The notes under the pieces: generated by a model
What the model was told of the DNA's origin: nothing
The model's input: only the letters and a program-made list of their open reading frames with translations
Database searches by the model: none
Position numbers and translations under genes: made by a program
Part shown: one piece after another, positions 1,966 through 27,423 of the stretch
Position numbering within the stretch: position 1 is the first letter of the stretch
How the letters are laid out: the number at the start of each line of letters is the position of its first letter
From: Chrysochromulina tobinii
Lineage: Eukaryota
Length of the DNA stretch: 33,642 bases
Assembly: GCA_001275005.1 (NCBI GenBank)
Contig: JWZX01002533.1
Location: 1-33,642 of the forward strand
Direction: 5' to 3'

Positions 1966-2045
1966 ACGACGCGTTTAGGCGGCGACGCCCGACACGACGC
2001 ACTTCGGCGGCGACGCCCGACACGACGCGTTTAGGCGGCGACGCC
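1966..2045. repeat. 28-bp tandem repeat (about 3 copies) spanning the PDX stop codon and 3' UTR
   Basis: ACGACGCGTTTAGGCGGCGACGCCCGAC-like units start at 1966, 1994 and 2022. The last unit contains the stop codon (tta at 2031-2033). Confidence 0.85.
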
Positions 2046-3749
2046 GGGGTCGACGCCGACACGTCCCTTGAGGGTGAGCTTGTCGGTCACGTAGCTGCCG
2101 GGCTCATTCTCAAGCAGGCCGACCATCGCCTTGCCCAGCCCCGTCGAGACACGCGCCACAGTGAGCGGGTTCTGGTAGTGCGTGCACGCGTTGACCATCG
2201 CGCGCGCGCGCTGGGCCGGGTTCTCGCCCTTGAAGATGCCGCTGCCCACGAAGACGCCATCGCAGCCGAGCTCCATGAGCAAGGCCACATCCGCCGGTGT
2301 GGCCAGGCCGCCGGCAGCAAAGGTGACCACTGGTAAGCGGCCCGCGTCCTTTGTCTGCTGCACCAGCTCAAACGGGACGCGCAGCTCCTTGGCGTAGGCA
2401 AAGAGCTCGTCGTCGCGCATCGTGCTCAGCTTGCGGATCTCGGAGAAGACGGCGCGCGCGTGGCGCACGGCCTGGATCACGTTGCCGGTGCCGGCATTGC
2501 CCTTGAGACGAATCATAGCGGCCCCCTCGGAGATCCGGCGAAGTGCCTCGCCCAGGTCCTGCGCGCCGCAGACGAAGGGGATGCCGAAGCTGCGCTTGTC
2601 GATGTGGTGCGCCTCGTCCGCCGCGGTGAGCACCTCGGACTCGTCAATGCAGTCGACGTCGAGCGCCTCGAGAATCTTGGCCTCGTAAAAGTGGCCGATC
2701 CGGCTCTTGGCCATCACGGGGATCGAGCACGAGTTCATCACATCGATGATCATGGCCGGGTCGGACGAGCGCGCGACGCCGCCGTCGGCCTTGATGTCCG
2801 CCGGGATGCGCTCGAGCGCCATCACCGCCACGGCGCCAGCAGCCTCGGCGATGCGCGCCTGGTGGCCGTCGACGACATCCATGATCACGCCACCCTTTTG
2901 GAAGACCGCGAAGGCGCGCTTGGCGGCGGTTGAACCGTAGCCCATGCCGTGCGCGGGCGCCGCGATCCAGGGCGCCGCGACGCTGAAGTCCGGCACCGCC
3001 GCCACCTTGGACACCTCCTTGACCTGGCACACGTCCTTGAGGAACAGCTCGAGCCATGAGTCATCGGACGAGATTTCAGGATGGAAGCACGTCGCCATGA
3101 GCTTGTTCTGGCGGACGGCGACGACGGCGCCGTTGTCGCCGAGCTCGGGCACCTCGTCGTCGGCCGCGACTTGCGCGAGGATCTCAACGCCGTTGCGCAC
3201 CTTGGTCACCGCCGGCGCGCGAATGAAGTACGCCTTGTCGCCGCAGTTGGCCGCGCTGTTGGAGACCTCCATCGGACGGAAAGCCGACTTGGACTGGCGG
3301 CCGAAGGCGTTGCGCTTGACGGAGATGTCGAGGCCGCCGAGGAGCGGCTGCGCGGCACCGTCGTCGAGGTCCTGCGCCAACAGGATCAGGCCCGCGCACA
3401 CGCCCCACGCGGGCTTGCTCTTCACGAACTTCTGCAACGGCTCCAGCAGCTTGGCGTCGACGAGGCCGTACCCGATGGCGGTGCTCTCGCCGCCCGGAAG
3501 AATGATCGCGTCCACCGTTGCGAGCTCCTTGGGCGTGCGCACCTCGACGCCCTCGACGCCCTGGTAGCGCGCAAGCGCCTGCATGTGCTCTGCGAAGCCA
3601 CCCTGAATGGCAAGGACGCCAACCTTGAAGGGCGCGCCGGCGGACGCATGCACGGCGGCGCAGCGGGCGGCGGCGGCGGCCGGGCGCGCGGCCGGGGCGA
3701 TCGTGTACGCCTCGACGGCGACGGTGATGAACAGCAGCCGGCTCAGCAT
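2031..3749 (-). CDS. PDX2-PDX1: Pyridoxal 5'-phosphate synthase, fused glutaminase (Pdx2/PdxT) and synthase (Pdx1/PdxS), with N-terminal signal and transit-like peptide; 572 aa, intronless
   Basis: Pdx2 motifs: [29 protein letters not shown] (catalytic Cys), RNAFGRQ, FIRAP, FHPE (His/Glu). Pdx1 motifs: [64 protein letters not shown] at 3749 ([19 protein letters not shown]); the ORF track start at 3827 is non-ATG. Confidence 0.95.
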
Positions 3750-4003
3750 TGCGTCTTGAGGAAGGGGGACAAAAATCGACGTGTCATCCCGATCGGCGAC
3801 TTTCCAAAGACGCTTCGCGGAATTCAACGCGTCAGATTACGTCAAGTCAAGTCAAGACAGATATGTCATGTGACGCACTCGGAATCGAAGAAGGTGCGGG
3901 GACGCCGGGGAGCCAACCCAGATGCCGCAACGTCGGATAAGTTACGAAACGAAACCTCCCAGGAACGTATTACGAACGCCGAAGACGTGTGTGCACCTCC
4001 ATC
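3750..4003. promoter_or_regulatory. Putative bidirectional promoter (254 bp) between PDX2-PDX1 and the small membrane protein gene; contains (TCAAG)3 at 3842-3856
   Basis: Divergent ATGs at 3749 (-) and 4004 (+); the interval is less GC-rich than the flanking CDSs. Confidence 0.5.
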
Positions 4004-4770: not shown

Positions 4771-7700
4771 CTATTCGGCCGAGGACGCTGGGACCGGATG
4801 CTCAGCCCCCTGCCGCGTCGCCTTGCGCTTGCGCTTCTCGGCCTGCAGCTTGCTGTTCTGTGCCTCGATGACCTTCGCCGCTTTCTCCTGCTGCAGCTCA
4901 ACACGGCGCTTATTCTCCGAGCGGCTCCGATAATACATCCTGGCCTCCCGCTTGCGCGTCGCGTACTCATCGACCAACTTGCGCGCGTACACCCGTGGGT
5001 CGAGGCTCGGCCATGGGTCGGGCTTGAGGTCGTACCTGCATGCAATGAGGAGGGCCATCAGCATGCAATGAGGGAGGGAGGGTCGAGGCTCGGCCATGGG
5101 TCGGGCTTGAGGTCGTACGGAGGCTCGTCGTTGTATCTGCGGCCAGAGGGATCGGCATAGGGTGCAATTAGGGTGCAATTAGGGTGCAATTAGGGTGCAA
5201 TTAGGGTGCAATCTCAGAGTGTTTGGAGGCCATCAAGGGGCACTTGGAGGCCATCAAGGGGCACTTGGAGTGGCGCCATTCGTTACTTGATGAGCACGGA
5301 TGAGTACTCGGCGATGATGAGAGTCCGGTACAGGTTCGTCAAGATCCACAGCACGATGCACGTGAACGAGGTGAGGTAGATCAGGTCGATGACTGAGGGG
5401 AAGTCCGTCTCCATCGTAGGCCAGATGGTGGATGATTGCGCCATCTCCTTAAATGGAAGGGCGGTGGGCCGGCGCAGGAGGTAGATTGTGGTGCCTAGAG
5501 AGGTGATGACATTATGGAACGGGTACGCAGTCGGGTAGAGCAGATTGCCAGTCAGTGCGAAGGTGACCATCGCGATCAAGAGGAAGATGAGGGCAGGCAC
5601 AAGCTTGACGCATGCGCGGCCCATCGTGATGCGCATGAGGAAGAGCCTCTTGGAGACGATGGAGTAGTAGAGCGCGAGGCGCAGCACGCACCTGATGAGG
5701 GACGCAAACAGCGATCATCAGTGGTCATCAGCGGTCATCAGCGGTCCTTAGTGGTCGTCAGTGGTCATTAGCGGTCATCAGCGGTCATTAGCTGGCAAGT
5801 AGCAGAGCGCGAGGCGCGCAGCACGACACTAGCATCATCAGTGGGCATCAGAGCCATCAGCGGTCATCAGTGTCATCATTGTCATCAGTGTCATCAGCAC
5901 GCACACGAGCAGTGCCGCCCCAAACAATTGCGAGGAGTAGCGCATCGAGAAGAGCGTGCGCGCCATAGTGGGCATGTAGGGCGGTGGCCACGTGGCGTCT
6001 TCTTTGAATAAGACTGATGGAGCGCGTGAGAAGAGACCATCAGCGGTCATCAGCGGCCATCAGTGGTCATTAGCGGTCATCAGCGATCATCAGCGGCCAT
6101 CAGCGGTCATCCGCGGTCATCAGCGGCCATCAGTACCAATCCGTGGCGATCAGTAGCCATCAGAGGTCATCAGCATGCACACCCTGGAGAGCGTCCATCT
6201 CGGCATAATGGTAATCATCAGAGGTCATCAGCATGCACACCCTGGAGAGCGTCCATCTCGGCATAATGGTAATCATCAGAGGTCATCAGCATGCACACCC
6301 TGGAGAGCGTCAATCTCGGCGTTCTCGGTGCGTCGCACGAACCAGCCACTCACTCCGAGCGCGGCCGTGAGAAAGTGCGCGACCATCTCGGGCTTGACGA
6401 TGAACCAGACGGGGGCTCCTCCCACAGTACCGAGCGCCGCATCGACGCCGAAGAGTTTGCCGATCGTGTTCGAGGCCGCGATGCGCAGAAAGTTGATGAT
6501 GACTTGGAGGGCTCGAAGGCCGAGCCAAATGATGAGAAGGTATTCGAGGAAGTCGCCCATGAACGAATTGGACGAGAGCGAGCCTGCGATGAGGAGGAGG
6601 GCAAGTCGCAGCGGTCATTAGCGGCCATTAGCGGCCATTAGCGGCCATTAGCGGCCATTAGCGGCCATTAGCGGCCATTAGCGGCCATTAGCGGTCATTA
6701 GCGGTCATTAGGAGGAGGGCAATTCATTCGTGTGGACCTCCGCGGCAATCAACGACTGGACAGTGCTCCTCTCAGAGGTCATCAGAGGTCATCAAAGGTC
6801 ATCCTCAGAGGACATCCTCAGAGGACATCCTCAGTACCTGCAACGCAGCTAAACTGCACTTTCGCGTAGCCAGTGCGAATGAGCTCCGTCACGATCTGCG
6901 TGTTCGCAACGTGATCCGTCTGCGGGTTGTAAAAGGTCATGTCGATGCCCACCGCAAGCGTCTGGCGATCGAGCCACGAATTCTCGGTGAGCCCACGCAG
7001 CACGGTGCGCAGCTCGAAGAAGGTCAGATTCGGTGGAAGGGTAAGGGCGAAGCCGCCGGTAGCGGCTGCCTCAAAAGCCGGTACCTGAAAAGGGACGCGA
7101 TCAGAGGTCATCAGAGGTCATCAGAGGTCATCAGAGCTCATCAGAGCTCATCAGAGCTCATCAGAGCTCATCGGGACTCATCAGAGCTCATCAGGACTCA
7201 TCAGAGCTCATCAGAGCTCATCAGAGCTCATCAAAAGGCAATCATGGTTCATCGGTGGCCGCCTCCAAAGGAAGGTACCGTCGGCGACGGGAAACCATCA
7301 GAGGTCATTAGAGGCAATCACGGTTCATCTCCAAGGCAGGTACCGTCGGCGATGGAAAACCGAGCTCTTCGGCTGTTTGGTAAACGAAGGCGGGCAAGAG
7401 GCCAGTGTAGGTGGTACCATTCCAGCCAGTAAAGTTGGCAGAGCCCGCGCTGGGGCTGCCTCCACCCGATCTTGTGGCATTACTGGTACTTGTGCCGGCG
7501 CTGCCGGCGCTGTTGGCGCTGTCGGCGCTGGTGGTCAAGCGCTTCACAGACGGCCCCGGGCACGCGGGATAGCACTCGACACGTGGCACGTAGAAGGCTG
7601 CCGCGGCGGCCGTGCGCTCAGGCGGCGCATGGGGTGCCAACGGCCCGAAATTGGTCGTGACGGTGTTCTCGGAGGAGTAGCAGAGGGAGACGTTACCCGG

Positions 7701-10700
7701 GGAATCGTCAACCGCGGAGATCTTGGCGAGCTCACCCAATCCCACAGGGTCGGTCGAGTCGAGATCGGTGCTCGTGTATTCAAACGGCACCGATGATGGC
7801 TTGTACCTGCGAAGGAGGGACGTGGCGCCCTGGTGAGCGCGTGCATGCGAGGAAGGGGTGGGCTGGGGGGGCTTGTACCTGCGGGACGCGCATTGAGGCA
7901 CGGTCACCTCATTACCGCGCATGCTCGGCTATCAGAGGTCATCAGAAGCAATTAGAGGCAATCAGCGTACAGAGACTTGGGGATGGCCGTCAGAGGTCAT
8001 CAGAGGTCATCAGAGGCAATCAGCGTACAGAGACTTGGGGATGGCCGAGGAGCCATTCGACCAAGGCCACCAAATCGAGCCGCTCTCTACAAACATCATC
8101 CCCGGGCATAGTGCTCGGTCTGCGGTCGCCCCTCGGATCTGCATCAGCCGAATGCCGCCAAGCAGCAGGTTCTTGCCACGCACCACAATCGGCGCCGGCT
8201 CGATGAACTGTTGAGCTGTCGCGTTCATGAGCGGAGATACGATCTCGTCAGAGCAGAGTGGTCATCAGCGGTTATCAGCGGTCTCATCAGCAGAGATACG
8301 ATCTCGTCAGAGCAGAGTGGTCATCAGCGGTCATCAGCGGTCATCAGCGGTCTCATCAGCGGTCATTAGCGTACCGGTCTCATTAGAACAGAGAAGGAGC
8401 GCCAGTGGGCCGAGAAGGCAGTTTGGAAAGAGGACGTACGGCAATGAGTTGATGAGGAAGTCTTGGAACATGGACATCGAGTTGACGTGCGCCAGGTCGG
8501 TGAGCGAATCCGAGACGACGTATCTGCATGCAACGAGGAGGGCCATGCCATCAGCATGCAACGAGGAGGGCCATGCCATCAGCATGCAACGAGGAGGGCC
8601 ATGCCATCAGCATGCAACGAGGAGGGCCATGCCATCAGCATGCAATGAGGAGGGCCATGCCATCAGCATGCAATGAGGAGGGCCATGCCATCAGCATGCA
8701 ATGAGGAGGGCCATGCCATCAGCATGCAACGAGGAGGGCCATGCCATCAGCATGCAATGAGGAGGGCCATCAGCATGCAATGAGGAGGGCAATCAGCATG
8801 CAATGAGGAGGGCCATCAGCATGCAATGAGGAGGGCCATCAGCATGCAATGAGGGAAGGCTCTCCGCGAGACGAGACGTACTCGAAGGGCGTATTGAAAG
8901 AGTTATCAGAGGCAATCAGCGGAAGTCATCAGCGGTCATCAGCGTACTCGAAGGGCGTATTGAAAGAGTCATCAGAGGCAATCAGCGGAAGTCATCAGCG
9001 TACTCGAAGGGCGTATTGAAAGAGTCTTCGAGGGCGGAACACATCTCTCGTTGCGTCTCCACATGGGTCTTAATGAAGGCGACTTGATAGATTAAAATGG
9101 CCAGCGCGACGGTCTCAAACACCATCTTAAGCATCTCAAAGCGCGTGAGGAAGGTTGGACTCCAGGCGAAGAGGCGCGTACGAATATCGTCTTCGAAATC
9201 GCCCATGTCCTCGCCCTCCGCCCCGGCCATCCGTCTTGCGCTCGCTTTCTGCCTCGCGCGCGCCTGCAAGCAAAGGAGGGAATCACTCGGAGGCAATCAG
9301 AGGCGATCAGAGGCGATCAGAGGCAATCAGACGCGCGCCTGCATGAAACGAGGGACGCATTCGACCGTCATCAGTCGTCATCAGTGGCGCGTACCTTGAG
9401 CACGGTGTCCACCTCGTGCTCAATATTCAGTGGCCATCAGTGGCCATCATCAGTGGTCATCAGAGGCCATCAGCATGCACACCTTGAGCATCTTGTCTAC
9501 CTCAAGCCCGAGATTCCTAGCGTCCCTTGCATCGTCCTGAGCGTCCTCCTCCGCCGCGGCCACGGCGCCCACAGCCCCCTTTTGGGATGCCGAGCGCTCC
9601 TGATGAAGCGTAATCAAGAACAGCTTAGTGATAGTCCTCTGCGCGGAAAGGTCCAACGCCTCAAAGACCAACGTGCGCCGTAAAAAGTGGACGCCGTTCT
9701 GGTCGGTCACCACGTGCCGCAGAGGACTGATGTGCCAGTACTCACACGCGGTCTCAATGAGCCTCTCGAAGGTGACGTCGTACCTGCATGCAATGAGGAG
9801 GCCATCCGCATTCACACTGCATTCACACGCGGTCTCAATCAGCCTCCCGAAGGTGACGTCGTACGAGATCGGGAGCTCGAGTGACGAGATCGGGAGCTCG
9901 AAGTGACTCGGAGTCATTAGGGGTCATTAGGGGTCATTAGGGGTCATCAGGGTTCATGAGCGGTCATTACGAGATCGGGAGCTCGAGTGACTCGGAGTTG
10001 AAGTGCAGCTGCACCAACTTGTTGGGTTGCTGTGACGATCGCAGCAGGCGGTCGTCGAACAAGTTGCCTGCAAGGCGAGCGTGAGGCGTCATCACTGATC
10101 ATCAATGGCACTCGATCGCAATCAGAAGCACTCACCGGTAATCAGAGCCTCCTCGATCCGGTGCCTCTCGAGGCGTGCGTCGGCGCCCGGTGGCATCGAG
10201 ATGAGATGAGCTCGCGCAAGCTCGCGTAACAGGGCGAGCAGCGCCTTGCCATAGTCGATATGGAGCTGCGAGGCGAGCTTGGCTGCCATGAGCTCTGGTG
10301 GCTGATCCGCATCGCGCATCAGCTCCTCCGTGCGCTGCGTATGCATGCGCCCCATGTACGTGCGCAGCACCTCCTCGAGCTTGGCGGAGATGACCTGATG
10401 AGGGTGGCAATCAGAGGCTCATCAGGGGTCATCAGAGGCGCAGCACCCCCTCGAGCTTGGCGGAGATGACCTGAGGTGAGGTCGGGCGAGGTCGGCGAGG
10501 TCGGCGAGGTCGGTGAGGTCGGCGAGCAGAGGCCCGTGCGCTGATTGCGGGCCAATCAGGGGGCCATCACGGGCCAATCACGGGCTTCTCGTGACAATCT
10601 CGTGGCAATCTCGGGGCACTCCGAGGGGCACTCCGAAGGGAAAGCACTCGCCTGCGGCGGCGAGATCGGCGAGTCGAGGCCCTTGAGCTGATCCGCGAGC

Positions 10701-13891: not shown

Positions 13892-16800
13892 ATGGGGCAA
13901 GGCTTCACCCATGTCGCTGGTCCGAAGCCCCCGTCGTGGCTCTCCGACTGCGCCGTGCTAGAGCCGACGGAGTGCATCTCTCGGCCTGAGTGTGGCTTCT
14001 GCTTCACTTCTTTTTCGTGCATGCCTGGCAACGCGAGTGGGCCCGCGGTGGGAGCGCTGCCATGCATTCCGAATCCGGCCGACCCGACGATCCAACCGCC
14101 GGATCACACCTACGACCCTGCCTCGGCCCGCTTCGGCTGGCTGCAGGCCAACTGCTCGTGGGCATACGACAATGCAACCTACGATGCCATCCTCGCCAGG
14201 CACGACTTTGGCGGACCTGGTGGGGGCCCAGCTGGATACGGTCCTCTGAAGAGCTTTGACACGATGCGCCCTCCGCGCTCGCCGTCCATCGACTCGGTTC
14301 CCCCCGAGTGGGACGCGCCGTGCACAGCTGGTGGCCAGCGGCGGTGGGATCCGCTCACCAACTGCAACCCGTCCCAAAAACCGGACGATCCGTGGCTCGG
14401 GCCCTGCAAGGACAACACCTACGCGTGGGGAGGCACCCGCTGCCTGTGCCCCGAGGGGCGGGTGGGCCTCACATGCGGCGGCTGTGCCTCCGATGCCGGC
14501 TGCGGCGACGGGTTCCAGTGTGACCTGCCGGCCTTTTCCCCGGTCGAGGAAGTGCACCTCGGCTGCATAGTGCCGTCGCGTTCGAGCATCTCCTTGTCTC
14601 CGGTTGTTGACCCAAAGTACATCTTCGGCTTCACAGGCACAGATAATGCGCAGCCGTCGTTCGACTTGCGCCTCGGGCCAGGCACGTGGCAGGCGACACT
14701 CAAGAAAGCCATCCCGTGGCCCCTCGGCCAGATCGTGACCTTCCTGAGCGTCAAGCCGGCGCCGCCCCAGGAGGGCAAGTATTCGCGGCTGCTCTCCGGC
14801 ATCTCCTTTGTAGCTGCGGTGCACAGCGAGCAGTACGTCACGGCGATTTCGCACACCTGCCCAGACAAGAAGGCGCTGGGGTTCGACTCGCCCTTTGACA
14901 GCGGTGCCACGTGCCTTCGGTGGACTGTGAGCGACAAGGTGAAGAGCGACGACTTCTTCAGCACCTCGCCGAATTTCTGCCCAGCGAAAGGTCCATGCCG
15001 GCTGCCCAGCTCTAGCTCCCCCGGCGGCTGGGCACGCTTCGATCAAGACACGAAGTCGATCGCGACGTACATCAAGCCGCCGCTCTCTGTCGACTGCCAG
15101 CTGCCGCGGACGCACGACTCCACGCACACAGTCTGCTCGCTCCAGACGAATTACAAGATCCTCGGGTCTCCGTTCATCATCAACATGGATTGCGAGGTGG
15201 CGGCGGGCCGATGCAATGCCGCACGCAACTTTTCGTATCCGTCACCACCATCCGCGCCGCCGCCGCCGCCGCCGTCGCCACTGAACCTCCTCGAGCAGTG
15301 TGCACTGCCCGAGCACTCGCGCCGGTGCACCTGGGGGGCTCTGTTAGTGCCCCTCGGGCTGCTGCTCGTGCTCATGGGCTCTGTGGCCTTGTGCCACCTG
15401 CTCAGCCACTGCTACGACAGGCGGGACCACGGTATCGCACGCCGCCGCTCCGCGCGAAAGCCCCGCCCCCTTGGCAGCCGCCGCCACCGACGCGCCGCCG
15501 ATGTCGGTACGTCGTCCGCGTCGGCAGACGCCCCAATGCCAGTAGTCAGCGTCCCGCCGAGGCGGGCAGCGCGTGTGAAGTGGGCGTCGGAGAGTTCCAT
15601 CGCCATAGAGCTGCCCTCCGACGCGAGCTCGGCTGCGCTGGTGTCTAGCTGGGCCAGCCCGGCGGGTGGCAACAGAACTCAGCTGACCACCGAGTTTCGT
15701 CAGCAGACCACCCTCTCCGACGGTGGTGCATCACTCAACGCGGCGGAGGGCGGTGGTGGCGCCGCATCTCCCGCCGCCGTCGCAGAGGCGGGCGGACGAA
15801 TCGGTGCAGACGAAGCGGGCGAGTGTGGGCAGATTGCCCAGCGGTGTACGACTCTGGGCGTCCTGCCCGTTGCGGCCATCGCCACCTGGCTGCCTGTAGA
15901 GCCATCGCCTCCGAAAACCACGGCGACGGCTCCGCCGAGCTCCCTCGCCGCATCCATGCTCATCCCCCCCAACGCCTCCATCCGGCAGCTCCCCGCGAAC
16001 ACGACGTCCTCCTCGCCCGCGGCCCTGACAGCCGCCGCCGCGCAGCCGCCTCCCCCGCCGCCGCCCCTCAGCTGGCATCACGTGAGCTACCGCGCGGGCA
16101 GAAACGGCCCCCGGCTGCTCCAGCCGTGCACTGCCGAGCTCCATGGTCGCGGTGCGACCAGCAGTGGGCTCTGGGCTATGATCGGCCCGAGCGGCGCGGG
16201 GAAGTCGACACTACTCAGCGTGCTGGCCGGCCGTCGAGAAGAGGTCTCCGTCGAGGCGGGCGCCGGCGAGCGTGCCGAGGTACGCCTTTACGGCCAGCGC
16301 ATGGGGAGCGCCGCCCGGCGCGCTCGAATCGGTTTCGTGACGCAGGAGGACGTGCTGCCCCCTACCTCGACGGTGCGTGAGCATCTCGACTTCCACGCGC
16401 GCCTTCGCGCTCCATGGCTCTCGCGCCGCGCGCGCCGGCAGCTGGTCGAGGCCAGCCTAGGAGCGCTCGGCCTCGGACCGCTCGCTGATCGGTGCATCGG
16501 CGACGGCTTCATACGCGGGCTCTCGGGCGGCGAGAGGCGCCGAACGTCCGTAGGCTGCGAGCTCATCGTCGCGACTGCGCGCACGGCGCATGAGTACGAG
16601 CGCCGTGTCGAGCGCATGGCTGATCGGCATGGCACGAGCGCGAGTGCCCACATGTCGAGCGCGCCGCGCGTACCGCTGCTGCTACTCGACGAGCCCTTCT
16701 CAGGCCTCGACTCGCTCAACGCGCGGCTACTTCTCCACGCGCTCGTCAGCATGGTGAACGGCAACGGCGACGACGCGGCCGACGCGGAGGTTGGCAAGGC

Positions 16801-18381: not shown

Positions 18382-19874
18382 ATGGTTATGCTCAGGGCTC
18401 TATCGGCATTGGCGGCCGTAGGCTCCATATGCGTCACCGGCTGGCTATTCCGCAGGGTCTTGGAGCTTGAGAAGGCTCTGGCGGCCGTCGAGGCCAAGTT
18501 AGTGGCCACAACGGAGCAGCAGCGCTCGGTGCTGGAGTGGCTGACCCAGCGCGTAGGCAACATTGCGAGCCGCCCGCAGTCGCCGCGGGTGACGTCGCGA
18601 GGCATCGACACGCGCTCAAATCGCGACTCGGACAACGATTCGTCGTGCTCACGCTCTGACGTTGGCGGGTACAAAACTGCCGAGGAGGAGGACGAAGATG
18701 GGGCTGAGGTGCCTATTAAGGCCGCGCATAGCAAGATGAAAGTGTCGACCCCCGCCGCCTCGAACTTCATAGGCACCGTAGCAATGCCGTTGGTAGACGA
18801 GCCCAGCGTTCCCGGTCGGCAGGCGGATAAGGAGTGGGCCGCACAGTCGGTCTACATTGGCGACAAAAGCTCATCGTGGAGCTGCCTGAGCGAGGTGGCG
18901 AGCAGCAGCAGCAGTGCGGATCCCATGAAAGCCCCCGCCGGGAGCTCGGATGCGGCAGCGGCAGCCGAGGCGGCCGAGGCGCGTGCCGCAGTGGCGACGG
19001 CGGTGCTCGAGCGCGCGGACGCCATGTACGAGGATGGCCAGTACAGCGACGCGAGCGATCTCCTCTCGTCGCAGGAGGCGAGCGTCGAGGTACTGTGGCG
19101 GCGATGCCGGCTGCTGAAGAGCTTCGCGGACATCGCTAAGGACAAGGGCGACACCAAGGAGAATGAGCGCTGCCTGCGTGAGGCCCATAAGCTCGTGAGC
19201 GAGGCACTCGAGCGCGACGACACCAACTGGGCCGTGCATAAGTGGTATGCGATCACGACCAGCCTCGTGAGCGCATTTGGTACGCGACCCGCGCGATGCA
19301 TGCTCGTCGGAGGCCCTCCAGCGTGGCGCGTGCGCATTCGCCCTCCCTCGCTCCCTGAGCGCTCCTCTACCATAAGCTTCACTAGGCTCCTCTAGGCTCC
19401 TCTCACCCTCGTGCGCCGCCCGCCTGCGTACGGATGGCACCGTCTCACCCGCTTGCGTTCGCCGTGCGCACAGATGGCACCAAGGCCGCCATCCAGCAGT
19501 CGTTTGTGGTCAAGGAGCACTTCCTGCGCGCGTCCGAGCTCAACCCGCGCGATGCAACCACGCGACACGCCCTCGGCTGCTGGTACTGGGAAGTGGCTTC
19601 GCTCTCGTGGGCCACGCGCAAGGTGGCAGCCGCCGTCTTCGCCTCGCCGCCAACAGGAACTTATGACGAGGCGCTCGCTCATTTCACCCTGGCTGAGAGC
19701 CTCTCGCCTGGATTCTACGTACGCAACCGCCTCATGATTGCCAAGTGCCAGCAACAGCTGCGCGACAAGGGCGCGGCCAAGCGATGGGCCATGCAGGCGC
19801 TCGAGGTGCCCGTCCTCAACGTCGACGACAAAGGCGCTGCCGCCGAGGCGAAGCAGCTCCTCGCGTCCCTCTGA
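18382..19874 (+). CDS. RMDN: Regulator of microtubule dynamics (RMDN/FAM82, PTPIP51-like) TPR protein; exons 18382-19279 and 19474-19874 (432 aa)
   Basis: Motifs VEVLWRRCR, VHKWYAI, KEHFLRASELNPRDAT, LGCWYWEVASLSWATRKVAAAVFASPPTGTYDEAL and LSPGFYVRNRL match the RMDN family pattern. Phase-1 GT-AG intron at 19280-19473. N-terminal TM anchor plus coiled coil. Confidence 0.9.
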
Positions 19875-24732: not shown

Positions 24733-24842
24733 CCGACCTAACAGCCCCTCCTTTCTCATCGTCGATTGTGAATTGGAGGGCTCAAGTTGCTCCGACCTAA
24801 CAGCCCCTCCTTTCTCATTGTCGATTGTGAATTGGAGGGCTC
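24733..24842. repeat. 51-bp direct repeat (1 mismatch) separated by 8 bp
   Basis: 24733-24783 and 24792-24842; spacer AAGTTGCT. Confidence 0.9.
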
Positions 24843-24909
24843 CCCGCTCGGCGCTCACCCTGATGACCCCTCACAACATCTCACCTCCTTCCAACGTCAG
24901 CGCCACGCC

Positions 24910-27423
24910 TCATGCCCCAAGTGGACGGCCGAGCCCAAAAGGGAGCGTCTCAAGCTCGATACGGCGCTCAAAGTACTCTTCAGCGGTGATTGCGGCCCAA
25001 AGGAATGAGTGCGGCGCAAGCGACACATTGATCCGGATCGAGTAGTCCACCAGCACCCTGGCAGCCGACTGAGCGGGCACTGGCCATTTGGACGGGTTGA
25101 GCAGCGAGCCACCCCACTCCAAGGCCAGTCGCGAGCCTGGCAGAGCGCCCGCGTAATAGAGTGGCAGCCGCAGCGTGGCGACCTTCGTGGCCGCCGTGGG
25201 ATTGAAGAGGTTGAGGAACGCAATCGGCTCGCCTGCCGCCCGGGCGCTGGCGTTCACGTGCATCGCGGCTTCAACGCCCCGGCCCGTCGGCCTCGAGATG
25301 TGAATCACGTCACTCGACAAGATCGGCCGGTACCTGATGAGGGAGGCAATCAGAGGTCATCAGAGATCATCAGAGGTCATCAGAGGTCATCAGAGGCCAT
25401 CAGAGGTCATCAGAGGTTATCAGAGGGACAGGATCGACCGGTACCGTTTGTAGTGGGCCGTCCAGAGCTTCCACAGCTGCTTGGCTTGTGGGCTGCCATC
25501 GTCGTACATCTCGGGCCCACGGTAGCACGGAATATTCCCCTGCCCGAGCAGCGACGCGAGGGCCTCCTCGAGCGTCTCGAGATGGTCGTCGAGCGGCGGT
25601 GGCGTGCGGTACATCTCAAACCCCAGCCACCCCTCCGTCGTCGGACTGAAGATCGACGAGTCGTAGAGATACAGGCGCGCCATCTGCAGATACTCGGCCG
25701 TCGAGTCCACATGATTCCAAGCATCCGTGTACCCGGCAGGCTCGCGGTTGGTGCCGCCGCTATTCCAGTAGGGATCCGGAACGGTCAGGAATGTGTTGAA
25801 CTCGCGCTTGAGCTGCCGATAGAAGTCAACGTTAGCGGCGTACTGCACGAGCTGCGAGTTATTTACGTGGCGGAAGCCCGACTTGCTTGTGACCGCGCAC
25901 GTGGCGCCCTCATAGGGGCCATCAGTCTCGAGCATGGCCATGCCGGTCTTGTTGAGGAAGGAGACTATGTTGTCCCGGTACTGCTGATGGTAAGCGGTGC
26001 TGAAATCGGCAATGTCCACGCTGCTACCGGGGCCATCGGGCGAGATACACTTGTCATCGCCCGTGACGCCCCCGTACGACAATTGCATCAGAGTATACCC
26101 GCCCATCTCGATGCCCAGCGATTTTGCGAACGACGTGTCGGAGGCGACGCTTGCGATGTAGGTCGGATCGGTGGAAGCTGGATCGAAGCCTGAACCAAAC
26201 GAGAGGAGCATCGCCTCGAAGCCCACCTCCGCGGCCTGTGCGGCGACCCGACGAATGCCCGCCGAGGTTGCATTCGTTGAGTAGAAGTAGAGAAGGCTTT
26301 CGGTCACCTGGGGAAAAAGTGTGCGCATGACTCGGCGGCGGGTGAGCCATTGGCGCTCGGCCTCAGTCGTGTCGCAAATGGTGAAGAACATCGTCATGAA
26401 CCGGTAGGCACCGCCATTGGCCGCGAGCAGCTGCCACGGCCCGAGAGGGTACTGAAGCTGCAGGAGCAGCGCGGTCACTGCGAGGTTGGCGTGCAGTGAC
26501 TGGTCGTTGACGTCATCCTCATAGTCAGGATCTATCCACCACGTGGGATAGTTCATGCGGCTCCCCTCATACGATCCAACATGAGGGTCGGCAGCCGGCG
26601 GCTGCGCATACTTCCAAACGGTTTTGCGTGGCATGTAGTCGGTCTCGACCAGCAACCTGTCCTTGGCATCCTCTGCGACATGCAACTCCTCCGTGACGAG
26701 CGTCTCCACCAGCACCTCGTGATCACCGCCGTTGCTCACCTCAAGCCACTTGGAAAAGGTAGGCAGGCCGTCGTGCAGCTCGTACACGACGGTCACCCGC
26801 ACGCCGCAATAGCAGCCGCAGTGCCCCGCCGGCGGCATGAATCGCACACGGAGCTGCAGACCTAGCGGGGGCCACGCAGCCATCGAGGAGTGACGCTGCC
26901 CAGGAGTCCAGGCCCATGCCGCCTTGGGCTGCGCCGTCTCGTGAGACTCGTACACAAAATCGTCCTCGCCGACGGTCCAATTCCAACGATCTTCCTCGTA
27001 GATCGCGTAACGCATCTGACCACGGAGCCCGCCGATGGCAATGCCCGCTGAGCCGATGCTGCTGCCGGTCACGTTCGGGTCGGTCTGTCCCTCGAGCGCG
27101 TCCGCCGCGTATGGCAGCAGCCCCCGCCGATGAGCTGCACCCTCATCGGGGCAGCTCAACGTGATACGCGCCTCAGGGCTCACACCTCGTAGGACCTCCA
27201 GGACTCCTCCCGTGTCAAATGACGCCTCCGATCGTAGGGCCACTGTGGCAAAGTTGGGCGTAGTAACAAAGCGTCTTGATATCAGACCGTTGGAAAGAAG
27301 CAGGGAGCCATCCGCATCCTTGGTGAGAGTGGATGATACAAGCGGCTTATCGACGAGAAAATCCTCTGACGGGAGGTGACCGAGAGCTTGGAACGCGAGG
27401 AGCATTGCACAAGGACCTAACAT
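24910..27423 (-). CDS. Secreted glycoside hydrolase-like protein resembling bacterial putative alpha-galactosidases; exons 27423-25445 and 25333-24910 (800 aa)
   Basis: Signal peptide MLGPCAMLLAFQALG. Motifs LSNGLISRRF, PPLG, VYELHDGLP..SKW, AAEVGFEAMLLSFGSGF, MGGY, ETDGPY and YKRYRPILSSDVIH..RP resemble an uncharacterised Bacteroidota/Planctomycetota TIM-barrel family (from memory, not searched). The phase-2 intron 25334-25444 joins two ORF-track ORFs in frame. Confidence 0.7.
25334..25444 (-). other. 111-bp intron: 18-bp exon duplicate plus (CCTCTGATGA)n filler
   Basis: 25316-25333 (exon) versus 25427-25444 (intron), 16/18 identical. The filler ends ...TTGCCTCCCTCATCAG. Confidence 0.85.

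What the first reader, a model, noticed from the sequence alone, without database searches (positions are those of the whole stretch)
25316..25444. Same architecture in an unrelated gene 14 kb away
The only intron of the glycosidase-like gene begins with an 18-bp copy (2 mismatches) of the next exon's start, GTACCGG(T/C)CGATC(C/T)TGTC. It continues with about 8 CCTCTGATGA units and ends TTGCCTCCCTCATCAG. That ending nearly matches the filler in polycystin intron 1 (TTGCCACCCTCATCAG, from 10395). A shared filler at non-homologous loci points to a dispersed source template rather than local slippage alone. If the gene is of bacterial origin, the intron must be a gain.
Basis: partly seen in the sequence, partly recalled or inferred. 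Interest (0 to 1): 0.75.

Follow-up and report, generated by a model that had tools for sequence, protein, structure and literature searches.

The report
New introns copied from intron ends
This 111-base intron in a haptophyte alga gene is spliced out, begins with a copy of the next exon's start and ends in a tail shared with many unrelated genes, which likely means the alga makes new introns by copying the ends of existing ones into fresh sites, a process that published intron-transposon screens would miss.

Summary
Confirmed and widened. The intron is 25334-25444 (minus strand, 111 nt). An RNA contig skips exactly 111 nt; DNA runs keep it. It is an 18-nt copy of the next exon's start, eight 10-nt units and a shared 20-nt acceptor tail. 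Among 105 distinct metagenome loci ending in that tail, 52 carry such a copy (controls 2/105, 2/1041); copies run 10-55 nt; 94 of 109 next exons start GT/GC. A second tail family without tandem units shows the same layout (14/29). One 73-nt intron is shared by two unrelated genes whose junctions match for only 14 nt, likely a caught transfer. Relatives at 63-96% protein identity read through the site, one probably on a 21-kb genomic contig, so the intron is likely a gain; bacterial origin does not date it. Best reading: homology-guided template switching copies existing intron ends, and selection keeps the spliceable ones. No enzyme was found; retroelement or HUH mobilisation remains open. The scan noted this family before on another piece of this genome (e1-2577349). 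Published introner screens exclude such introns by design.

The parts
25445..27423 (-). Exon 1 coding part of a glycosidase-like gene (distant relatives named alpha-galactosidase); ends without AG before the donor
   Evidence: no Pfam family for the protein itself
25427..25444 (-). 18-nt copy of the next exon's start; supplies the GT donor; reads Ser where the exon reads Pro, and Ser is what the intron-less sister form has
25354..25426 (-). Tandem 10-nt units carrying a branch-point-like CTGAT motif (branch-point role recalled, not tested)
25334..25353 (-). Shared 20-nt tail: branch-point-like motif, pyrimidine tract, acceptor AG
25316..25333 (-). Start of exon 2, the copy kept in the mRNA
   Evidence: contig 21 of X13, 0 other letters
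24910..25333 (-). Exon 2 coding part to the stop codon
10395..10470 (-). Module of 33-nt exon-start copy plus same-family tail at the 3' end of polycystin intron 1 (whole intron 10395-10651, RNA-supported)
9784..9970 (-). Polycystin intron 3 (RNA-supported): 42-nt exon-start copy, 21-nt copy of the previous exon's end, second tail family ending TTGCATGCAG
7807..7878 (-). 3' module of predicted polycystin intron 7: 9-nt exon-start copy plus a member of the non-tandem tail family (7831-7848)
   Evidence: boundaries predicted
5692..5904 (-). Predicted polycystin intron 11: 10-nt exon-start copy at the donor and a tail of the target's family
   Evidence: boundaries predicted
5036..5118 (-). Predicted polycystin intron 13 (83 nt): perfect 39-nt exon-start copy at the donor plus second-family tail
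   Evidence: boundaries predicted from a stop-free 1177-aa model

Best explanation
This is a spliced intron made of a short copy of the next exon's start plus an acceptor tail shared with many unrelated genes, likely gained recently when DNA synthesis at the site switched template to the 3' end of an existing intron and then switched back. Inferred steps: (1) a nascent antisense strand ending at a GT/GC-like site pairs by short homology with the exon start behind another intron's acceptor; (2) it copies that intron's AG, pyrimidine tract and branch region backwards for about 30-150 nt, with slippage giving locus-specific 10-11-nt units; (3) it re-anneals 10-55 nt downstream of where it left, often through a CT/CTG microhomology, so the exon start is copied twice; (4) the first copy serves as donor, the captured tail as acceptor, and splicing restores the reading frame exactly; (5) selection keeps events whose copy starts like a donor and whose total length reaches about 65 nt. 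Each new intron leaves a donor-like exon start behind a tail, which would seed further rounds without a dedicated transposon. Shown: anatomy, splicing of the target, the layout across loci. Inferred: gain, order of events, template switching. Unknown: the enzyme, and whether the template is DNA or unspliced RNA.
For: Splicing: 111-nt skip in an RNA contig. Layout: 52 of 105 distinct loci have an upstream copy anchored at exon base +1, against 2 of 105 (exon offset 40) and 2 of 1041 (swapped loci) (the target's own locus L072 is among the 52). Copies 10-55 nt, median 24, 22 of 50 perfect. Next exon starts GT/GC in 94 of 109 and GT-purine in 65 of 73 GT starts against 303 of 557 in window coding sequence. 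Removing copy-start to AG joins concordant frames in 28 of 32 loci (about 45% expected from the marginal frame counts). Only 21 of 38 copies have AG before them, and the target has none, so the acceptor must come from the tail. Copy end overlaps the unit motif by 2 nt or more in 10 of 50 loci against 1.2-1.4 simulated, 0 of 5000 runs reaching 10. Copy and tail lengths trade off (rho -0.50, n 41; 2 introns under 65 nt against 6.8 expected). A tail family without tandem units, met unasked in the flanks, repeats the layout: 14 of 29 (one of these copies filler, not exon), controls 0 of 29 and 7 of 794; chimeric tails occur. L052 and L111 share a 73-nt intron (71 identical) in unrelated genes; its first 20 nt copy L111's own exon, and the junctions share only 2+12 nt; L111's intron splits a C2 domain; L052 recurs in a second assembly; this pair ranks first of 4005 both for intron similarity and for exon-start identity. 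Gain: P0131, P0133 (96%), P0003, P0004 (79-80%), P0007 and E. huxleyi P0159 (63%) read through the site; P0004 and P0007 break or carry an insert elsewhere, so look genomic; P0131 and the neighbour gene's sister form P0211 both list a longest contig of 21,367 nt.
Against: No polymerase or nuclease is identified. One sharp end, one ragged end and a variable duplication is also the footprint of target-primed reverse transcription (PMC9977147 passages) and of Replitron-1 (PMC10288648 section 9). The transfer case is a single pair, with linkage unknown. Support for priming by exon homology is otherwise weak: nearest neighbours share 2.61 against 2.29 exon bases without that pair (P 0.015), and the correlation over all 4005 pairs is slightly negative (-0.09). 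53 of 105 loci show no copy at score 10. DNA-templated switching does not explain why tails sit almost only in gene sense (87 of 97; in the window 89 of 92 minus-strand unit motifs lie in 14 introns, 3 on plus). Copies of the previous exon's end occur in 5 of 13 polycystin introns (score 12 or more), so local duplication also acts. P0002 has the intron yet equals intron-less P0133 over 661 residues, so loss in the sister form is as possible as late gain. The DNA of the read-through relatives was not seen.
Confidence: 0.55

Rival explanations
1. A retroelement reverse transcriptase (LINE or Penelope-like) copies intron-containing RNA at a nicked target; the second nick 10-55 nt away makes the duplication, and 5' truncation makes the ragged end.
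For: Exact 3' end at AG, variable 5' extent with microhomology, variable duplication. Any intron could be template, which fits several tail families. An RNA template fits strand bias. Variable duplications flank non-LTR insertions (PMC9977147, passages).
Against: No poly-A or fixed tail at the sharp end. The L111 to L052 case shares 12 nt of downstream exon, which an excised lariat lacks, so it needs unspliced RNA or DNA. No reverse transcriptase domain in 73 of 123 listed frames upstream of no-copy loci (a weak test).
Confidence: 0.2
2. A short non-autonomous element moved by a HUH (Replitron- or Helitron-like) transposase: one precise end at a dinucleotide target, one fuzzy end, variable duplication, iteron-like 10-11-nt repeats.
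For: Replitron-1 insertions are orientation-specific, with a precise end, a fuzzy end and variable duplications, and a Replitron protein was recovered from Chrysochromulina tobinii (PMC10288648 section 9 and passages). The tail's last 10 nt are an inverted unit; tandem copies of the tail occur.
Against: No constant second end or terminal direct repeat; tail as short as 28 nt; a family without repeats behaves alike; the intron folds no better than shuffles (z 0.23); copies not starting GT/GC occur behind existing acceptors (L034, L110), so the dinucleotide looks selected, not targeted.
Confidence: 0.12
3. Old introns renewed in place, or tandem duplication of an AG|GT exon segment later overwritten by filler; no new intron position.
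For: 12 of 50 copies lie behind older filler; polycystin intron 1 has a module behind an older acceptor; copy and tail lengths trade off; exon-end copies are common.
Against: The target has no AG before the donor, nor do 17 of 38 loci. Relatives read through the target site. 38 of 50 copies follow non-filler sequence. A whole intron moved between unrelated genes.
Confidence: 0.1
4. The shared tail is only a strong splice consensus, expanded by local slippage.
For: The tail has the parts of an ordinary 3' splice signal; units are uniform within a locus and differ between loci.
Against: An exact 20-mer at 109 distinct loci; other introns of the same window end differently; it does not explain copies anchored at exon base +1.
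Confidence: 0.03

Closest known systems
Introners that co-opt the 5' splice site from the target duplication and carry the 3' site (Symbiodinium; Polarella glacialis classes 4/5 and 6/8/10; bioRxiv 10.1101/2020.10.14.339549, parts 1-2 of 4 read; PMC9860276, passages and supplement searches)
   Same: Donor from the duplicated target, acceptor carried in, frame restored exactly, next exon starts like a donor.
   Different: Those have fixed 3-8-nt duplications and, in Symbiodinium, inverted repeats and whole-length similarity. Here the duplication is 10-55 nt, only the 3' end is shared, and several tail families mix.
Emiliania huxleyi introner fam24 (PMC12130899, supplement file 8 row: 5 copies, unknown class, '10bp terminal direct repeats', co-opt 5' carry 3')
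   Same: Haptophyte, same splice-site logic, longer direct repeat, mechanism unknown.
   Different: A five-copy family alike end to end; its sequence was not seen, so kinship is untested. The same paper lists 0 families for C. tobinii (file 7 row); the Chrysochromulina sp. example of PMC9860276 has a 4-nt duplication and the opposite logic.
Intron gain during break repair, and intron transposition or transfer (review PMC3443670, passages)
   Same: Direct repeats with filler DNA; a transposed intron brings ready splice signals.
   Different: The review counts 5 break-repair and 14 transposition cases; here the filler is itself an intron end, the repeats are long and the layout recurs at half of the sampled loci.
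Replitron-1 of Chlamydomonas reinhardtii (PMC10288648, section 9 read)
   Same: One precise end, one fuzzy end, variable duplication that includes the target dinucleotide.
   Different: Elements of 0.9-3.6 kb with terminal direct repeats and a Rep gene; not described as making introns in what was read.
Intron gain by tandem duplication of an AGGT-containing exon segment (PMC3443670, passages)
   Same: A copy of the next exon's start opens the intron.
   Different: The acceptor here is foreign, and AG before the donor is absent at the target and at 17 of 38 loci.

Membership tests
Spliceosomal intron | GT..AG interval removed from RNA, present in DNA, frame restored | tested here: met
Introner as screened by PMC9860276 | Similarity among introns reaching both splice boundaries | tested here: not met
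   Only the 3' end is shared; first 30 nt agree in 1 pair only (L052/L111); criterion
Introner as screened by PMC9860276 | Multi-copy, in unrelated genes, at intron positions in gene sense | tested here: met
Introner as screened by PMC9860276 | Empty site in relatives | tested here: inconclusive
   Met for the target from protein read-through and contig lengths only; DNA not seen; other loci not tested
TIR DNA transposon / MITE | Fixed-length short target duplication | tested here: not met
   10-55 nt
TIR DNA transposon / MITE | Terminal inverted repeats at both constant ends | tested here: not met
   Last 10 nt are an inverted unit, but the 5' boundary is not constant
Non-LTR retroposon (SINE-like) | Variable duplication, precise 3' end, truncated 5' end with microhomology | tested here: met
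Non-LTR retroposon (SINE-like) | Poly-A or simple-repeat 3' tail and an autonomous partner sharing the end | tested here: inconclusive
   No such tail at the AG end; partner search limited to 73 frames; no genome held
Replitron | Short direct terminal repeats at both ends | tested here: not met
Replitron | Rep HUH transposase in an autonomous copy | not testable with these tools
   No genome held for this window
Tandem-duplication intron (AGGT model) | AG before the donor and intron end copied from the previous exon | tested here: not met
   Target exon 1 ends without AG; intron end is foreign
C/D-box snoRNA | Rfam match at gathering score | tested here: not met
   3 matches at 17.6-20.6 bits, gathering scores 40-60

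The most novel reading that the evidence does not exclude
A transposase-free chain reaction of intron birth: host repair or replication copies the 3' end of any existing intron into a site with a few matching exon bases, duplicating 10-55 nt that become the donor; every product is a new template, so hundreds to thousands of introns arise, still segregating among sister lineages, and haptophyte lineages differ only in which tail they happen to spread.
Probability: 0.4. Interest if true: 0.87.

Novelty: new variant of a known kind. Interest (0 to 1): 0.72.

Why it matters
How new introns arise is a long-standing open question, and recent surveys credit most bursts to transposons. Those surveys require likeness at both intron ends and drop low-complexity families, so a class that shares only its 3' end is invisible to them. 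This alga offers many dated events (perfect to diverged copies), a likely parent-daughter pair and a likely empty allele in a 96%-identical sister form, which makes intron transposition by template switching directly testable by population sequencing or mutation-accumulation lines.

Tried and rejected
Depth over the tail is thousands of times single-copy depth, but the tool warns this is no copy number; only the 149 and 150 contigs that leave the match just after AG in runs X1 and X6 are used. The target's joint was listed for one RNA run only; run X16 shows one piece ending at 25438 with 186 nt unlisted, which is not counted. Viral contigs: 0 hits for the main tail; 1 hit for the non-tandem family at the very end of a phage-like contig, taken as a likely chimeric end. 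snoRNA: below gathering. Hairpin: fold no better than shuffles. Hammerhead ribozyme (motif recalled): the CTGATGA core is there, no GAAA in the intron. Mismatches between copy and exon are not enriched at third codon positions (13, 6, 11), so a second-allele origin is not supported. Captured foreign flanks: 6 of 105 loci share a 14-mer with another locus's exon start; 4 of the 6 were displayed and only L052 held up as an intron transfer. Linkage of L052 and L111 could not be tested. Species: two protein searches and two cluster look-ups gave haptophyte relatives (E. huxleyi 63%, a cluster at 50% holding Prymnesium parvum) but no named match. No tree was built, so bacterial origin is untested. 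Two papers wanted for comparison (E. huxleyi genome; Huff et al. 2016) were not held; 10-11-nt intron repeats in E. huxleyi are recalled only. Ten paper searches listed no description of this layout; supplements were searched by term only, one was cut when stored and two files of PMC12130899 were not searched. My first two polycystin models had a wrong boundary each; one search is the stop-free one, with only introns 1-4 RNA-supported.

Full report
Observation. On the minus strand the only GT..AG intervals that restore the frame near the finding are 25444-25334 (111 nt) and 25438-25334 (105 nt). RNA contig 21 of run X13 joins 25438 to 25326 with no other letters, a 111-nt skip, while DNA runs X1 and X6 carry sequence into both intron ends. 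The intron is an 18-nt copy of the exon start with 2 mismatches, eight 10-nt units and a 13-nt end. The last 16 nt recur at 10395 and 5692 with 1 mismatch each, against 0.27 matches expected. The host is a haptophyte: the protein has an E. huxleyi orthologue at 63% and the neighbour gene a relative at 50% whose cluster holds Prymnesium parvum; the species was not determined.

How widespread. No genome was available, so two proxies were used. In DNA run X1, 47, 74 and 28 contigs match the tail and leave it at 25330, 25332 and 25333, just after the AG. Of 209 matches, 121 were last in their cluster with 80 nt behind them, 109 were distinct and 105 had 150 nt before them. The next two bases are GT in 78 and GC in 16 of 109. 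An upstream copy anchored at the first exon base (score 10 or more) was found in 52 of 105, the target's own locus L072 included, against 2 of 105 for exon sequence 40 nt further on and 2 of 1041 for swapped loci; 53 had none. For the 50 loci analysed further (L072 and one locus whose first copy scored lower left out), copies are 10-55 nt, median 24, and 22 are perfect. A codon model trained on window genes put the sequence after the AG on the sense strand in 87 of 97 loci, and the frames before the copy and after the AG agreed in 28 of 32. Even counting loci without a detected copy, exon starts look like donors: GT-purine in 65 of 73 against 303 of 557 in window coding sequence.

Anatomy that bears on mechanism. 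AG precedes the first copy in 21 of 38 loci with non-filler upstream (background 47 of 590), so in 17, and at the target, the acceptor cannot come from the duplication. The copy's end overlaps the unit motif by 2 nt or more in 10 of 50 loci, against 1.2-1.4 in simulations. Tails are 28-171 nt; units are mostly 10-12 nt apart, uniform within a locus and different between loci. Copy and tail lengths trade off and few introns fall under 65 nt, which fits a minimum intron length. 12 of 50 copies lie behind older filler, as in polycystin intron 1, where RNA of 3 runs removes the old part and the module together. In a stop-free 13-intron, 1177-aa model of that gene (Polycystin domain; introns 1-4 RNA-supported), 4 introns hold exon-start copies at score 10 or more and 5 hold copies of the previous exon's end, so local duplication acts at both ends.

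More than one tail. The window holds a second tail ending TTGCATGCAG. A third, without tandem units, turned up unasked in the flanks: 29 acceptors, 25 followed by GT/GC, 14 with an upstream copy (one is a copy of filler), controls 0 of 29 and 7 of 794, spans of 63-86 nt. Chimeras of unit-type and third-type tails occur, and the window has a member at 7831-7848. The process therefore captures intron 3' ends in general, not one element.

A likely transfer caught. L052 and L111 carry the same 73-nt intron, 71 bases identical, in unrelated genes. Its first 20 nt copy L111's own next exon, where the intron splits a C2 domain; L052 shares only 2 nt before and 12 nt after the intron. L052 recurs identically in a second assembly. 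Of 4005 pairs this one ranks first for intron likeness and for exon-start identity. The simplest reading is that the intron was born in L111's gene and copied whole into a site resembling L111's junction; the shared exon bases imply a template that still had its exon. This is one pair; the wider signal is weak (nearest neighbours 2.61 against 2.29 shared bases without it; overall correlation -0.09).

Gain or loss. Relatives at 79-80% (P0003, P0004), P0007 and E. huxleyi P0159 read through the site; P0004 and P0007 break or carry a 44-residue insert at other places, which suggests genomic sequence with other introns. In a sister form at 96%, P0131 and P0133 read through, and P0131 shares its longest contig length, 21,367 nt, with the neighbour gene's sister form P0211, so it is likely genomic and intron-less. 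P0002 equals P0133 over 661 residues but runs into the intron: either presence/absence within the sister form, with gain or precise loss, or a recombinant or chimeric contig. The intron copy reads Ser like the intron-less form, while the window exon reads Pro. Many homologues at 33-36% appear bacterial (those that carry a source name are bacterial alpha-galactosidases), but a haptophyte-wide gene makes that irrelevant to the intron's age.

Mechanism. I favour homology-guided template switching by host synthesis (0.55): it accounts for several tail families, chimeras, ragged 5' junctions with microhomology, variable duplications and the L111 to L052 case. It does not explain the near-absence of tails outside gene sense, which hints at a transcription-coupled step. 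Target-primed reverse transcription (0.2) and a Replitron-like HUH element (0.12) leave similar footprints and are not excluded; 73 of 123 listed frames upstream of no-copy loci held no such enzyme domain. That the intron is an inserted tail with a duplicated donor is much firmer than the choice among these three.

Known work. Introners with the same splice logic have fixed 3-8-nt duplications. The large screens need likeness at both ends and drop low-complexity families; C. tobinii is listed with 0 families and E. huxleyi fam24 with 10-bp terminal direct repeats. Neither tail string searched was found in the supplements held. Ten searches listed no account of this layout. The scan's note e1-2577349 reported the family on another piece of this genome and read it as a mobile element; new here are RNA support, the extra tail families, the transfer pair and the read-through sister form. 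Verdict: real, a new variant of known intron-gain routes, interest 0.72.

Noticed in passing
P0004, P0139, P0149 (protein cluster of a relative at 80%): Near-identical alleles (517 of 521 residues) break at two other sites of the same gene or at neither; the run-on residues (VRVRV, PLPLP, QPQPQ) look like translated hexamer, telomere-like repeats. Suggests intron presence/absence with a different filler in a marine relative; DNA not seen.
   Followed up: partly
window 10395-10651: Polycystin intron 1 has an inner AG|GT where the module begins, a candidate for two-step (recursive) splicing; RNA shows only the net skip.
   Followed up: partly
window 5119-5136: Predicted 18-nt micro-exon between polycystin introns 12 and 13.
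   Followed up: no
window 5158-5212: Five copies of an 11-nt unit containing CCCTAA, a telomere-like hexamer (label recalled), in predicted polycystin intron 12.
   Followed up: no
window 19280-19473: RNA-supported 194-nt plus-strand intron without any of the three tails, an ordinary control intron.
   Followed up: partly
window 24738-24843: A direct repeat of about 50 nt downstream of the glycosidase-like gene, with no filler of the studied kind between the copies.
   Followed up: no
window 14070-15150: Clustered alternative bases and a 3-nt gap in run contigs within the ABC transporter gene, suggesting two alleles or paralogues.
   Followed up: no
window 2031-3836: One frame holds both SNO and SOR/SNZ domains, a fused vitamin B6 synthase gene.
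   Followed up: no
L138 4495-4554: A phage-like contig ends in 60 nt of the algal non-tandem tail, likely a chimeric contig end.
   Followed up: partly
L069 and L070: Neighbouring introns of one contig share a rarer 11-nt unit, so nearby introns may also serve as templates.
   Followed up: no
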